Source: the human T2T-CHM13v2.0 reference genome, Homo sapiens
NCBI RefSeq assembly: GCF_009914755.1
Contig: NC_060941.1
DNA length: 64,000 bases
Direction: 5' to 3' (one strand)
Below the pieces are notes generated by a model, which was not told the DNA's origin, did not search any database, and saw only the letters and a list, made by a program, of their open reading frames with translations. Made by a program: the position numbers and the translations under genes. Positions 26,286 through 29,401 of this stretch are shown piece after piece. Positions within the stretch are counted from its first letter, which is position 1, and each line of letters opens with the position of its first letter.

Positions 26286-26877
26286 CTGGAAGCAAAAAGA
26301 GACATTTCAGCTCACTAGCTTGATGGCTATCATCACACTTCACAACTACACATTCAAATAGGTGGGAAAACTTCAAAAACTGAGGGCCTTCTACTCCAGT
26401 CAGTTCTTTATTCGGTCCAAGTGGACTAAATACAAAGATCTTTGAGACCTTAGGTAAGGTTGGGGGAGGGGGTGGTGAGAAAGGAACCACAGGTTCCCCC
26501 TTTTGGCAACAGCTTGTTTTCACCCCAAGCTACTAAGTAACCACACTGCCAAGGGCATAGGTGGCCTGTTTATTTAGCCTGAGACTGCAGTTTCTCTCTA
26601 CTCCACATCTTGATTAAGTAGGAATCACGTGTGAGGGACAGGGAGCTCAGACCCTGTGACCGGACCCACACAGTCCAAGAGTGAGGCCAGGGTGTGACCA
26701 CGGGCTCTGCCCTCAGGCCTGAGTTCACATCGAGCTGTGCCAGGCCGATCACCTGACCTCTCAGAGCCTGTCTTCCTCTGTAGCACGGGACTAATTAGAG
26801 GGGCTTCATTTGCCTCCCCACATCCACACACCCCTCTCCAACTGCTCCCTGCCCTGGGATTCGAGCCTCTGGTCCAC

Positions 26878-27445: not shown

Positions 27446-27529
27446 CTTTCTGTCAGGTAGCTGATGAAGTCCGGATGTAGCAGCTTGAATTTACTGGCAG
27501 AGGCTTCTGGTCCAAAATAGGCGTGCGGC
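27446..27529 (-). CDS. ST6GALNAC2: ST6GALNAC2 exon 7 ([27 protein letters not shown])
   Basis: cctag|GCCGCAC ... GAAAG|gtacg; 84 nt, in phase with neighbouring exons. Confidence 0.96.
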
Positions 27530-28381
27530 CTAGGACCCATGATAGAAGTGGACAGAGCGCCCAGAGCCGTCGTATTGCAAGGGGGAGATGGAGGGGAGGG
27601 TCAGGGCGCCGGAGTAGCCGCGGTACCCTGAGCGGTAGGAGCGGGGCTGGGAGTAGTAGCGGGAGAAGGGGGTGTAGAAGGTGGCAGGCAGCACGTTGGG
27701 GACCACGTGCGGCTTCCCGCTCACCAGGACCTCCACGGGCGGGGTGTAGGAGAGAGAGGAGGGGGGCATGAACAGACCGGGGGGAGTTGGGAAGGGGCAG
27801 TTAAACTGGGGGTGGTGGGGGGGCGGGGGAAGGAGAGGTAAGTAGAGTGAGTCAGGAGGGGGTGGGGGCTTCCGGGCAGGGCAGGGAGAGGGACAGGCAA
27901 AGCATGGGTTTTGGGGAAGTGGTGCTGTGGGGGGCTGGAAAAAGGGGGGCTCCTTCAGAAAGCGGGGCACATAGGGGGTGATATAGGACGGGATGTTCTG
28001 AATTGGCCCGATATAGGAAGATGAGGTGGCAGGGCTGTAGAAGGAGGACTTGGGGGGCACAGCGGGGGTTAGGGAAGGGTTTCGAGAGAGGGATTTGAAA
28101 CCAGACTGGGAGGGAGATTTGGAGGTGGGTGGGGTGGGGGTTTGGGCAGCCCCGCGGGGCACGTGTTGGACCTGAGGACTGGGGTTCAGGGACGAAGTCC
28201 GGGAAGAGGGCTGTGAGGCATTTGGGGTGGGAGGGTGGGAGGGGGGCCGGGAGGAAGAGCCCCGAGTGGGGGAGGGGGAAGGGGCAGGCTGCTGGCCTGG
28301 AGGGGTGACAATGTTGTTGGAACGGGACTGGGAGGGAGACTGGGTAGGGGATGGATTAGGGGTGTGGGAAGGGGAGCTCAT
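27530..28381 (-). CDS. Candidate nested gene: 283-aa Pro/Ser/Tyr-rich protein in ST6GALNAC2 intron 6
   Basis: Non-repeat ATG-initiated ORF; in-frame TAA 6 codons upstream; 14 Tyr codons with no internal TAA/TAG; the stop TAG is the last 3 nt of intron 6. Confidence 0.6.
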
Positions 28382-29297
28382 TGGTGTTGGGGAGGCTTAG
28401 GTCCACCCGATGTCTCTGAGGCAGCCCCTAAGGGCCCAAGCCCAGCGTGTCACAAAGCCCAGCTCAGACCAGCAGTGGAAGCAATTGTTGGGTAATCACC
28501 AAGCGGGGGTGGGGTGGGCCTGGCTTTAGAACCCTTAACCCATAAGGACCACCTGTAAAGCTGCTCTGTGGGGGGTGGGGAAGATGTCCTCAGCGAGACG
28601 CCGAGATAGGAGGGCTGGTTGTCTGGGCCACAGCAGTGGCGTCGATTTTTAGGGACCTGATCTCAGGGACAAGAAATTGTCTCAGAACCCCCGGGAGGAG
28701 GTTCAGATGAGGGTCAGGTCGTGGCTCAAGAGAGCTGGACCCAGGCCTGCTGTGCAGGAAGGTGGGAAAGAAGACAAAGGGCCCATTGTTTCCGCCTCTC
28801 AGGACACTGGGCCTCGAGTCTGCTCTCCCGTTTCATGGGCATGACCCTGGGAAGGATGCCCAGCAGGAGGAGTGGCCCAGACTGGCCCCAACTCTTGTTT
28901 CCAGCACAGTGTGCTCAGTGGGACAGCGGACCCAGCCCAGTCTGTGACCCGGAGCCGCTGGCGGCTGGGCTGGGCAGGGAGAGTGCAGCCCAAAGCCGAG
29001 AAGCCAGACCTGCTCACCCCATTCAGAAGAGCTGCCTCTCCCACCCCCAGCCCACTGCCCCCAGAGGGCTACTGGGAACCCGGAGGGTCACCTGGGCTTT
29101 CCAGGGGTAGACAAAAAGTAGAATTTCCCAGTGCTGTTATGTGAATAATTGGGGATGATTGAATTCTTAGGGCTTTTCTTACTGCCCTTCACCCACCTCC
29201 TCTTACCCCATGATGGGCCCTGGGAGCAAAAAGGAGATAACCACAGTGTCCCTTGCCCCTCTGCCACGCCCCACACCACCACGGCCTGGCTGCTCAC

Positions 29298-29401
29298 CTG
29301 TCCCCTTTATCTAGGCCCTCAGGGACAGGCACGCCCAGAATGGCCGATCTCAGCATCACATAGTCGCGGATGTCTGAGGGGATGAAGATATACTGCAGGT
29401 C
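29298..29401 (-). CDS. ST6GALNAC2: ST6GALNAC2 exon 6 ([34 protein letters not shown])
   Basis: gacag|GACCTG ... GACAG|gtgag; 104 nt. Confidence 0.95.

What the first reader, a model, noticed from the sequence alone, without database searches (positions are those of the whole stretch)
27530..28381. Nested 283-aa gene candidate in ST6GALNAC2 intron 6 whose stop codon is the host splice acceptor
Seen: a same-strand, non-repeat ORF fills the 3' half of intron 6. An in-frame TAA lies 6 codons before the ATG. The last codons ([12 protein letters not shown]) overlie the branch/pyrimidine region, and the TAG supplies the AG of exon 7. The protein has an SP/TP-rich N-terminus, then a complex aromatic region ([63 protein letters not shown]). 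It has 14 Tyr codons and no internal TAA/TAG, hard to explain by C-richness alone, though pyrimidine skew contributes. Inference: an independent protein from an intronic promoter that uses host exons 7-9, or intron-7 AATAAA signals (26569-26574, 26407-26412), as 3' UTR. The composition is reminiscent of germ-cell proteins. It may already exist as an unnamed gene model; I cannot verify this.
Basis: partly seen in the sequence, partly recalled or inferred. Interest (0 to 1): 0.85.

Follow-up and report, generated by a model that had tools for sequence, protein, structure and literature searches.

The report
Known testis gene nested in ST6GALNAC2
The open reading frame is a real, conserved mammalian testis and sperm protein gene inside an intron of ST6GALNAC2, but gene annotators found and published it in 2019, so it is not new.

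Summary
A 283-codon ORF lies at 27530-28381 on the minus strand and fills the 3' 48% of ST6GALNAC2 intron 6. Its TAG (27532-27530) supplies the AG acceptor of exon 7.

It is a real coding gene:
- Near-full-length orthologues exist across placental mammals and in koala.
- All 31 aligned sequences share the start Met, and 26 of 31 share the end column.
- Identity to human is far above a neutral simulation.
- Peptides were reported from human testis and boar sperm.

It is already known:
- RefSeq annotates it as LOC122455342.
- Mudge et al. 2019 (PMC6886504, Supplemental Data S2) list it as AC015802.6 / ENSG00000284526. They print the same 283-aa sequence and describe testis expression.
- They also note that the stop codon overlaps the conserved splice acceptor.

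The protein is basic, rich in Pro and Ser, and predicted disordered. It has no Pfam family, no PDB relative and no human paralogue. In boar sperm it is phosphorylated at conserved Ser/Thr-Pro sites.

The transcript start and 3' end remain undefined here. Interest is low.

The parts
27530..28381 (-). Single-exon coding sequence of 283 codons plus TAG. It equals RefSeq LOC122455342 (testis-specific serine/proline-rich protein) and GENCODE AC015802.6 / ENSG00000284526.
   Evidence: Searches give the ORF and its translation. One search shows the identical 283-aa sequence printed in PMC6886504 Supplemental Data S2, at GRCh38 chr17:76568797-76569648 (852 nt, minus strand). One search finds the orthologues.
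28379..28381 (-). Start codon ATG. Its context is weak: C at -3 and A at +4.
   Evidence: One search shows the sequence. In alignment A1, 31 of 31 sequences start at this Met column, and the first 22 residues are almost invariant.
28397..28399 (-). In-frame TAA, six codons upstream of the ATG. It closes the frame on the 5' side.
27530..27532 (-). Stop codon TAG. Its AG (27531-27530) is the 3' splice acceptor of ST6GALNAC2 exon 7.
   Evidence: plus the supplied gene table (exon 7 is 27446-27529). PMC6886504 Supplemental Data S2 makes the same remark. In A1, 26 of 31 orthologues end at the same alignment column.
27533..27620 (-). The last ~29 codons. This stretch also carries the pyrimidine-rich 3' splice-site region of intron 6, so it has a dual use. 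Residues 275-279 are nearly invariant.
   Evidence: Searches show the sequence. One search gives conservation (R275 S276 V277 H278 F279 in at least 90% of 31 sequences). The dual constraint itself is inferred.
28382..28542 (-). A 161-nt stretch free of ATG, directly upstream of the start codon. It is a candidate 5' leader if transcription starts inside intron 6.
   Evidence: the six upstream intronic ATGs lie at 29211, 29022, 28842, 28836, 28786 and 28543, with none between 28542 and 28382. No CpG island, TATA box or CRE half-site was found in 28300-29297. The position of the start site is not shown.
29294..29296 (-). TGA that ends the ST6GALNAC2 reading frame one codon into intron 6 when that intron is retained.
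   Evidence: the exon 6 frame reads ...KGDR* and the stop begins at 29296.
27446..27529 (-). ST6GALNAC2 exon 7 (84 nt), immediately 3' of the nested stop codon. Any nested mRNA that runs on would carry it as 3' UTR.
   Evidence: Supplied gene table. Its role as 3' UTR is inferred.
26407..26574 (-). Two minus-strand AATAAA signals in intron 7 (26569-26574 and 26407-26412). They are possible but untested poly(A) signals for the nested mRNA.

Best explanation
The ORF is the already annotated single-exon gene LOC122455342 / ENSG00000284526 (AC015802.6). The databases I searched hold it only from therian mammals.

The protein is 30 kDa with pI 10. It is 24% Pro and 18% Ser and is predicted to be intrinsically disordered. 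It is made in testis, kept in mature spermatozoa, and phosphorylated at several conserved Ser/Thr-Pro sites.

The coding sequence occupies the 3' half of host intron 6 and ends on the host acceptor AG. The protein can therefore only come from an RNA in which that acceptor is not used.

Most likely mechanism (inferred, not shown): a testis-specific transcript starts inside intron 6, within a few hundred bases of the ATG. It therefore has no upstream donor to pair with the acceptor.

Most likely role (inferred from composition, sperm retention and the company it keeps in the boar data): a structural or scaffolding component of sperm accessory structures, regulated by proline-directed phosphorylation. 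The exact location and role in sperm are not known.
For: Identity with the known gene:
- The supplied RefSeq table has the same coordinates.
- PMC6886504 Supplemental Data S2 gives the same 852-nt span, the same 283-aa sequence and a top rank of 14 among PhyloCSF candidate coding regions (PCCRs).
- It also records conservation 'mammals', mouse ENSMUSG00000110170, and 'all sources support testis expression' in both human and mouse.

Conservation:
- 57 database proteins match at E <= 0.001, and 40 of them cover at least 90% of the query.
- Species include primates, colugo, rodents, lagomorphs, carnivores, cetartiodactyls, bats, shrews, elephant, tenrec, armadillo and koala.
- I aligned 30 of the 57 hits with the human protein (A1). 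All 31 share the start Met, 26 of 31 share the end column, and 62 columns are invariant.
- Identity to human over aligned columns is 0.69-0.97 in placentals, with 1-10 in-frame indel events each.
- A neutral substitution simulation without indels gives mean identity 0.44 (maximum 0.54 in 4000 runs) and an open frame in 0.13% of runs at 0.45 substitutions per site. That distance is my recalled figure for human-mouse neutral divergence.

Synteny: 6 of the 57 hits are automatic gene models that fuse the sequence to ST6GALNAC2 (PF00777), in a bat, a dolphin, a rodent, donkey, rhinoceros and tree shrew.

Protein evidence:
- Two human testis peptides in Supplemental file 6 of PMC6886504 map to residues 62-76 and 77-88.
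- Boar sperm proteomics (PMC8322956) reports accession A0A286ZJB1 as 262 aa, 45.8% coverage, 10 peptides and 60 PSMs.
- Four of its peptides match the pig orthologue P0024 exactly by eye. They correspond to human residues 41-61, 77-88, 129-140 and 178-192.
- One phospho-Thr has 100% localisation and 63 PSMs. It falls on the Thr-Pro-Pro that is invariant in 31 of 31 sequences (human T83).
- Human has 20 Ser/Thr-Pro sites, and 8 of them are kept in 31 of 31 sequences.

Disorder and lack of a family:
- AlphaFold2 on A1 gives mean pLDDT 50.9 and pTM 0.11.
- Pfam gives 0 families and the PDB profile search 0 hits.
- The human genome holds one match, the gene itself.
- An exhaustive profile search of 1.84 billion representatives gives 6 hits. 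Five are among the proteins, and the sixth (P0058, 63 aa) matches the C-terminal end of the profile.

Intronic start:
- With intron 6 retained, the host frame stops one codon into the intron.
- Six ATGs then follow, three of which open 27-38-codon upstream ORFs.
- The last 161 nt before the ATG have no ATG.
Against: - I had no expression, CAGE, long-read or Ribo-seq data. The transcript start and 3' end are therefore not shown.
- GENCODE derived its model from a retained-intron ST6GALNAC2 transcript and labels the locus 'cotranscribed with ST6GALNAC2'. That label does not favour an independent promoter.
- No TATA box, CRE half-site or CpG island lies upstream.
- If the mRNA ran on and spliced exons 7-9, the exon 7/8 junction would lie 84 nt past the stop. 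By the 50-55 nt rule (recalled) such an mRNA would be a target of nonsense-mediated decay.
- I could not compute dN/dS, because no orthologous DNA could be fetched. The coding-selection argument rests on protein alignments, my simulation and the published PhyloCSF rank.
- The orthologue set consists of predicted proteins, so species with a broken copy would not appear.
- The labels in boar supplement file 3 are unreliable. Two peptides listed there under A0A286ZJB1 are not in P0024, and the phospho form of a peptide unique to A0A286ZJB1 in file 1 is labelled SRPK2 there. I used files 1, 2 and 5 only.
- One mouse sperm phosphoproteome supplement did not contain the one orthologous peptide I searched for.
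- The role in sperm is inference. No localisation or knockout study was found.
Confidence: 0.9

Rival explanations
1. Bicistronic or cotranscribed reading. The protein is translated from ST6GALNAC2-promoter transcripts that retain intron 6, so there is no separate promoter.
For: PMC6886504 Supplemental Data S2 gives model status 'existing transcript', biotype 'retained intron transcript of ST6GALNAC2', and 'cotranscribed with ST6GALNAC2' in the 'Bicistronic?' column. No recognisable core promoter motif lies upstream of the ATG.
Against: In such an RNA the ribosome would first translate host exons 1-6 and stop at 29296-29294. It would then cross 915 nt holding six ATGs before reaching the nested ATG, which has a weak context. 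Efficient reinitiation after a long ORF is not expected (established knowledge). Yet the pig protein is abundant enough for 60 PSMs in sperm. A 'retained intron' transcript model can also begin inside the gene, and I could not see the structure of ENST00000640006.
Confidence: 0.2
2. The sequence is an alternative coding exon or C-terminal extension of ST6GALNAC2, not a separate gene. Several automatic gene models in other mammals predict this.
For: Six of the 57 hits join part of the sequence to sialyltransferase exons (P0045, P0048, P0049, P0054, P0055, P0056).
Against: - In human an in-frame TAA precedes the ATG.
- The host frame stops one codon into intron 6.
- The nested frame differs from the host frame in exon 7.
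- The N-terminal 22 residues and the start Met are conserved in 31 of 31 sequences, which an internal exon would not need.
- The fused models each take a different piece of the ORF, as expected of prediction artefacts.
- The boar accession detected in sperm is a 262-aa, 28-kDa, pI 11.1 protein, not a ~42-kDa enzyme.
Confidence: 0.03
3. It is a chance ORF in C-rich intron DNA, or a conserved non-coding element such as a splicing regulator that merely happens to be open.
For: The strand is 49.6% C. Sequences of the same composition stay open in a given frame in 1.3-3.5% of simulations. The 3' end overlaps the splice-site region, which is conserved for its own reasons.
Against: - The frame is open from the same Met to the same end in 26 of 31 aligned mammals, despite 1-13 indel events per species against human.
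- Identity is far above the neutral expectation.
- The published PhyloCSF rank is 14.
- Peptides come from human testis and boar sperm.
Confidence: 0.01

Closest known systems
GENCODE AC015802.6 / ENSG00000284526 / ENST00000640006, the same gene as RefSeq LOC122455342 (NM_001395979.2, testis-specific serine/proline-rich protein)
   Same: It is identical. It has the same 852-nt span, strand and 283-aa sequence, and the same published remark that the stop codon overlaps the conserved ST6GALNAC2 acceptor (supplied gene table).
   Different: Nothing differs. My analysis adds detail on orthologues, sperm phosphorylation sites and the upstream reading-frame logic.
Mouse ENSMUSG00000110170. Its conceptual translation is GenBank ACL12360, from Platt et al. 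2009, J Proteome Res 8:1431 (PMID 19186949)
   Same: It is the orthologue named by PMC6886504 Supplemental Data S2, and was reported in a study of mouse sperm phosphoproteins. A Mus protein in my search (P0006) is 79% identical over aligned columns.
   Different: I could not read the 2009 paper, which is not held. I saw only its title, in the reference list of PMC7582274. What it says about the protein is unknown to me.
Pig UniProt A0A286ZJB1, reported as 'St6galnac2' in boar sperm phosphoproteomics (PMC8322956)
   Same: Four peptides assigned to it match the pig orthologue P0024 of the nested protein. In supplement file 2 it is an 'Uncharacterized protein' of 262 aa.
   Different: The paper names it alpha-N-acetylgalactosaminide alpha-2,6-sialyltransferase 2 and lists its function as unknown. 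The label appears to come from the locus, not from the sequence. The model is 24 residues shorter than P0024, with an 8-residue offset at the first mapped peptide.
Plant extensins and LRX proteins. Automatic annotation uses these names for several orthologues ('extensin', 'leucine-rich repeat extensin-like protein 5', 'vegetative cell wall protein gp1')
   Same: Only the composition is shared: runs of Ser and Pro.
   Different: No Pfam family matches, including any extensin or LRR family. The exhaustive profile search returns no protein outside this mammalian family. The names are compositional artefacts.
Other novel coding sequences listed as cotranscribed with a host gene in the same table, for example AC119676.1 in the HIVEP3 5' UTR
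   Same: Both are conserved coding sequences found by PhyloCSF inside existing transcripts of another gene, and both are marked 'cotranscribed'.
   Different: The HIVEP3 case is a 26-codon upstream ORF sharing one start site with its host. This case is a 283-codon ORF inside an intron, downstream of most of the host coding sequence, with testis-specific expression.

Membership tests
Annotated gene LOC122455342 / ENSG00000284526 | Same genomic span and strand | tested here: met
   The ORF lies at 27530-28381 on the minus strand, which equals the RefSeq coding part in the supplied table. The GRCh38 span in PMC6886504 S2 is also 852 nt on the minus strand.
Annotated gene LOC122455342 / ENSG00000284526 | Same protein sequence | tested here: met
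   The 283-aa sequence printed in PMC6886504 Supplemental Data S2 reads the same as the translation, compared by eye.
Conserved protein-coding gene (as opposed to a chance ORF) | Reading frame kept across distant species, with in-frame indels only | tested here: met
   All 31 sequences share the start and 26 of 31 share the end. There are 1-13 indel events per species against human.
Conserved protein-coding gene (as opposed to a chance ORF) | Codon-level purifying selection (dN/dS below 1, or a positive PhyloCSF score) | not testable with these tools
   No orthologous DNA could be fetched. Published PhyloCSF candidate rank is 14. My protein-level simulation is an indirect substitute.
Conserved protein-coding gene (as opposed to a chance ORF) | Peptide evidence | tested here: met
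   I read this in published supplements and did not re-analyse spectra. There are two human testis peptides and four boar sperm peptides matching P0024.
Sialyltransferase family 29 (ST6GALNAC2, PF00777) | Match to the Glyco_transf_29 domain | tested here: not met
   Pfam scan of the 283-aa protein finds 0 families at E <= 1. PF00777 appears only in fused gene models.
Extensin / LRX proteins (names given by automatic annotation) | Sequence homology to plant extensin or LRR domains | tested here: not met
   Pfam finds 0 families. The profile search of 1.84 billion representatives returns only 6 proteins, none from outside this family.
Independently transcribed nested gene | Own transcription start inside the host intron | not testable with these tools
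   No expression data were available. Sequence logic favours it, while the GENCODE label 'cotranscribed' does not.

The most novel reading that the evidence does not exclude
The shared TAG/AG may make host and guest mutually exclusive on any one pre-mRNA. Using the exon 7 acceptor destroys the nested message, and keeping it yields the sperm protein. A testis-specific start site inside intron 6 would then act as a switch that turns a sialyltransferase locus into a sperm-protein locus. The product may also be a therian-specific, disordered, proline-directed phosphoprotein of sperm accessory structures that is needed for normal motility or fertility. Neither idea is excluded by my evidence, and I found neither in print.
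Probability: 0.15. Interest if true: 0.4.

Novelty: already known. Interest (0 to 1): 0.1.

Why it matters
As a discovery it adds little. The gene, its testis expression, its mammalian conservation and its stop/acceptor overlap were published in 2019 and are in both RefSeq and GENCODE.

Three smaller points have some value:
- The protein still has no HGNC symbol in the supplied table. I found no functional study in the searched library. It is therefore a conserved sperm phosphoprotein of unknown role.
- A published boar sperm study reports this protein under the name of the host sialyltransferase. Several mammalian annotations fuse the two genes or call the protein 'extensin'. These labels can mislead later work on sialylation in sperm.

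Tried and rejected
- **Orthologous DNA for dN/dS.** Scans of genome contigs (9 pattern matches, none confirmed) and viral contigs (12 pattern matches, none confirmed) gave nothing. No dN/dS was computed.
- **Pfam.** 0 families.
- **PDB.** A profile of A1 gave 0 hits at E <= 1, so the protein is not a named chain in any solved structure by sequence.
- **AlphaFold2.** The model has low confidence (mean pLDDT 50.9), so I ran no fold search.
- **ESM Atlas.** The best feature score of 0.75 is below the level the tool calls a lead.
- **Paralogues.** The human genome holds only the gene itself, so the paralogous ST6GALNAC1 has no related sequence.
- **Literature under the RefSeq names.** 'LOC122455342' gave 0 papers. 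'testis-specific serine proline-rich' gave 0 papers, but the search cannot match a slash, so the exact RefSeq name could not be searched.
- **Literature under the Ensembl and GenBank identifiers.** The 3 papers found were seen only as search listings. Their titles suggest differential-expression studies in cancer or cell-line data.
- **'ST6GALNAC2' with 'spermatozoa'.** 8 papers were found. The rat epididymal-fluid paper concerns the true 41.9-kDa enzyme, and the boar vesicle paper lists ST6GALNAC2 among sialyltransferases. Neither bears on the nested protein.
- **Wright et al. 2016 (PMC4895710).** The main text mentions neither ST6GALNAC2 nor a 283-aa locus.
- **Platt et al. 2009 and a 2012 review by the same group.** Neither is held.
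- **Mouse sperm phosphoproteome supplement (PMC7582274).** The one orthologous peptide I searched for is absent.
- **Core promoter motifs upstream of the ATG.** None found.
- **Complex prediction.** Not attempted, because no partner is proposed.
Full report
**1. The observation**

The minus strand of the window carries an ORF from the ATG at 28381-28379 to the TAG at 27532-27530, with 283 sense codons.
- An in-frame TAA sits at 28399-28397, the sixth codon before the ATG.
- By the supplied gene table, ST6GALNAC2 exon 6 is 29298-29401 and exon 7 is 27446-27529. Intron 6 is therefore 27530-29297 (1768 nt), and the ORF fills its 3' 48%.
- The last two bases of the stop codon (27531-27530) are the acceptor AG of exon 7.
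- The two minus-strand AATAAA signals in intron 7 are present.
- The ORF is not a tandem repeat. Tandem Repeats Finder gives only 3 arrays of 19-24 nt.

**2. Is the ORF more than chance?**

By length alone, only weakly. The sense strand is 49.6% C.
- Under independent base composition, a 283-codon frame stays open with probability 0.02.
- First-order and second-order Markov simulations of the same composition stay open in the given frame in 1.3% and 3.5% of 5000 trials.
- They stay open in any of the three sense frames in 3.7% and 10.3% of trials.
- The other five frames of the same stretch hold 3-16 stops.

The decision has to come from comparison with other species and from protein data.

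**3. Conservation**

A search of 5.8 billion proteins returned 57 hits at E <= 0.001 among 2103 candidates.
- Forty hits cover at least 90% of the query.
- Named species include orangutan, tamarin, lemur, slow loris, colugo, mice and voles, jerboa, squirrel, guinea pig, kangaroo rat, rabbit and pika.
- They also include bear, cat, whales, deer, pig, alpaca, shrews, bats, pangolin, elephant, tenrec and armadillo.
- One marsupial is present: koala, at 37% identity over 95% of the query.

I aligned the human protein with 30 of the 57 hits. I left out unnamed metagenome-derived records, fragments and fusions. The result is alignment A1.
- All 31 sequences begin at the same Met, and 26 of 31 end at the same column.
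- The five exceptions are one armadillo model marked partial, guinea pig, and three bats that end one to four residues earlier.
- Sixty-two columns are invariant. The first 22 residues are almost unchanged even in koala.
- Identity to human over aligned columns is 0.69-0.97 in placentals and 0.48 in koala.
- Each species differs from human by 1-13 indel events, and all of these keep the frame.

As a control I evolved the human coding sequence in silico without selection and without indels.
- At 0.45 substitutions per site, mean protein identity is 0.44, with a maximum of 0.54 in 4000 runs.
- The frame stays open in 0.13% of those runs.
- The figure of 0.45 is what I recall for human-mouse neutral divergence. 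It does not come from a call.
- The Mus protein P0006 is 0.79 identical, with 6 in-frame indel events.

One caveat applies. The orthologues are predicted proteins, so a lineage with a broken copy would simply be missing from the list.

I could not obtain orthologous DNA, so I computed no dN/dS.

**4. Synteny**

Six of the 57 hits carry the sialyltransferase domain PF00777. They are automatic models that splice part of this sequence into ST6GALNAC2, in Pteropus, Lagenorhynchus, Scotinomys, Equus asinus, Ceratotherium and Tupaia. Each model takes a different piece of the ORF, which fits prediction artefacts. They still show that the sequence lies inside the ST6GALNAC2 gene in those species.

**5. 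It is already known**

The supplied table lists LOC122455342, 'testis-specific serine/proline-rich protein', NM_001395979.2. Its single coding exon is exactly 27530-28381 on the minus strand.

Mudge et al. 2019 (Genome Res 29:2073, PMC6886504) list the gene in Supplemental Data S2 as a 'New discovery'. I read passages of the main text, passages of supplement files 3, 4, 6 and 8, and part 1 of 12 of file 4 for the column headers. The entry reads as follows:
- Name AC015802.6, at chr17:76568797-76569648 on the minus strand.
- Top candidate rank 14.
- Model status 'existing transcript', and earlier biotype 'retained intron transcript of ST6GALNAC2'.
- ENSG00000284526 / ENST00000640006, 283 aa, one coding exon.
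[quoted passage not shown] - Contemporary RefSeq annotation 'absent'.
- 'Bicistronic?' column: 'cotranscribed with ST6GALNAC2'.
- Peptide support 'Kim et al'.
- Comment: a conceptual translation of the mouse locus was deposited as ACL12360 in a 2009 study of sperm proteins (PMID 19186949).

The printed sequence is the same 283 residues. The rest of that comment cell was cut when stored (563 characters), and file 1 of the supplements could not be searched. Either may hold more history of the locus.

PMID 19186949 is Platt, Salicioni, Hunt and Visconti, J Proteome Res 2009, 8:1431, on capacitation-associated phosphorylation of mouse sperm proteins. I saw only its title, in the reference list of PMC7582274. 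The paper itself is not held.

**6. Protein evidence**

Supplement file 6 of PMC6886504 lists two peptides from testis samples for this locus. They map to residues 62-76 and 77-88 of the ORF, and both are flanked by tryptic sites.

A second line came from a search for ST6GALNAC2 in sperm papers.
- A boar sperm proteome and phosphoproteome study (PMC8322956) names 'St6galnac2' among its ten most multiply phosphorylated sperm proteins, with pTP motifs.
- The accession behind that name, A0A286ZJB1, appears in supplement file 2 as an 'Uncharacterized protein'. It has 262 aa, 28.1 kDa and pI 11.1, with 45.8% coverage, 10 peptides and 60 PSMs.
- Four peptides assigned to it in files 1 and 5 occur letter for letter in the pig orthologue P0024 of the nested protein. 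They correspond to human residues 41-61, 77-88, 129-140 and 178-192.
- None of the four resembles the sialyltransferase. The sperm protein reported there is therefore the nested protein.

Phosphate positions in the boar data:
- In the 77-88 peptide, phosphate is localised at 100% (63 PSMs) on the Thr that aligns with human T83. That residue is part of a Thr-Pro-Pro invariant in 31 of 31 sequences.
- In the 41-61 peptide, the best-localised site (99.4%) aligns with human S48.
- A phospho form of the 129-140 peptide is also listed, with 19 PSMs.

The labels in file 3 of that paper look shifted. The phospho form just mentioned is labelled SRPK2 there, although the same peptide is unique to A0A286ZJB1 in file 1. 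Two peptides labelled A0A286ZJB1 in file 3 are not in P0024. I therefore did not use file 3 labels.

A mouse sperm phosphoproteome supplement (PMC7582274) did not contain the one orthologous peptide I searched for. This says little, because the protein may not have been in the search database that study used.

**7. What kind of protein**

- Size and charge: 30.3 kDa, pI 10.0.
- Composition: 24.4% Pro, 17.7% Ser, 6.4% Thr, and only 4 acidic residues.
- Phosphorylation motifs: 20 Ser/Thr-Pro sites, 8 of them kept in all 31 sequences.
- Conservation covers both halves: the Ser/Pro-rich N-terminal third and the aromatic C-terminal part.
- AlphaFold2 with A1 gives mean pLDDT 50.9 and pTM 0.11, with two six-residue helices only. 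The protein is predicted to be disordered.
- Pfam gives no family, and a PDB profile search gives no chain.
- The human genome has no second copy.
- An exhaustive profile search of 1.84 billion cluster representatives finds 6 proteins. Five are among the proteins, and the sixth (P0058, 63 aa) matches the C-terminal end of the profile.
- ESM Atlas gives nothing usable.

In the databases searched the family appears only in therian mammals. Missing gene models in other vertebrates could hide older members.

**8. How it is likely expressed (inference)**

Any RNA that encodes the whole protein must leave the exon 7 acceptor unused.
- In a transcript from the ST6GALNAC2 promoter that retains intron 6, the host frame reads one more codon and stops at 29296-29294.
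- Six ATGs follow before the nested ATG, at 29211, 29022, 28842, 28836, 28786 and 28543. Three of them open upstream ORFs of 27-38 codons.
- The nested ATG has a weak context. That route looks inefficient for a protein this readily detected in sperm.
- The 161 nt before the ATG (28542-28382) contain no ATG.

I therefore favour a start site inside intron 6. I found no TATA box, no CRE half-site and no CpG island there. GENCODE labels the locus as cotranscribed. Expression data are needed to settle it.

The 3' end is also open.
- If the RNA continues and splices exons 7-9, the exon 7/8 junction lies 84 nt beyond the stop. By the 50-55 nt rule (recalled) this would invite nonsense-mediated decay.
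- The alternative is polyadenylation at the intron-7 AATAAA signals, roughly 960-1120 nt downstream of the stop.

**9. Verdict**

The gene and its most striking feature have been in print since 2019 and are in both major annotations, so novelty is 'already known' and interest is low.

What remains open is the transcript structure and the role of a conserved, heavily phosphorylated, disordered sperm protein. I found no functional study of it in the searched library.

Noticed in passing
window 27530-28381 (-), with protein P0024: A published boar sperm phosphoproteomics paper (PMC8322956) reports this nested protein under the name of the host enzyme, 'St6galnac2, alpha-N-acetylgalactosaminide alpha-2,6-sialyltransferase 2'. 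Four peptides of its accession A0A286ZJB1 match the pig orthologue of the nested protein. The labels in supplement file 3 of that paper appear shifted: the phospho form of a peptide unique to A0A286ZJB1 in file 1 is labelled SRPK2 there.
   Followed up: yes
proteins P0045, P0048, P0049, P0054, P0055, P0056 and the names listed: Automatic annotations in several mammals fuse parts of this ORF into ST6GALNAC2 models. Others name the stand-alone protein 'extensin', 'leucine-rich repeat extensin-like protein 5' or 'vegetative cell wall protein gp1'. There is no Pfam support for any of these names.
   Followed up: partly
protein P0054 (Equus asinus isoform X3) and P0055 (Ceratotherium), aligned to window about 27700-27750 (-): These predicted isoforms join ST6GALNAC2 exon 6 directly to the last ~70 residues of the nested protein, in the nested reading frame. 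Many species have Ser where human has Thr213. Such a Ser codon after the Tyr codon could create a pyrimidine-tract-plus-CAG acceptor inside the ORF, which human lacks. This is inferred from protein sequences only, and no DNA of those species was seen.
   Followed up: no
protein P0057 (unnamed metagenome-derived record, 345 aa): This is a ruminant-like copy with a scrambled N-terminal half. Its stop codon is replaced by Trp, and it reads on into the ST6GALNAC2 exon 7 frame. It is either a low-quality contig or a degraded copy.
   Followed up: no
window 29294-29299 (-): The exon 6 donor of ST6GALNAC2 reads AG|GTGA. Retention of intron 6 therefore ends the host protein after a single extra codon.
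   Followed up: yes
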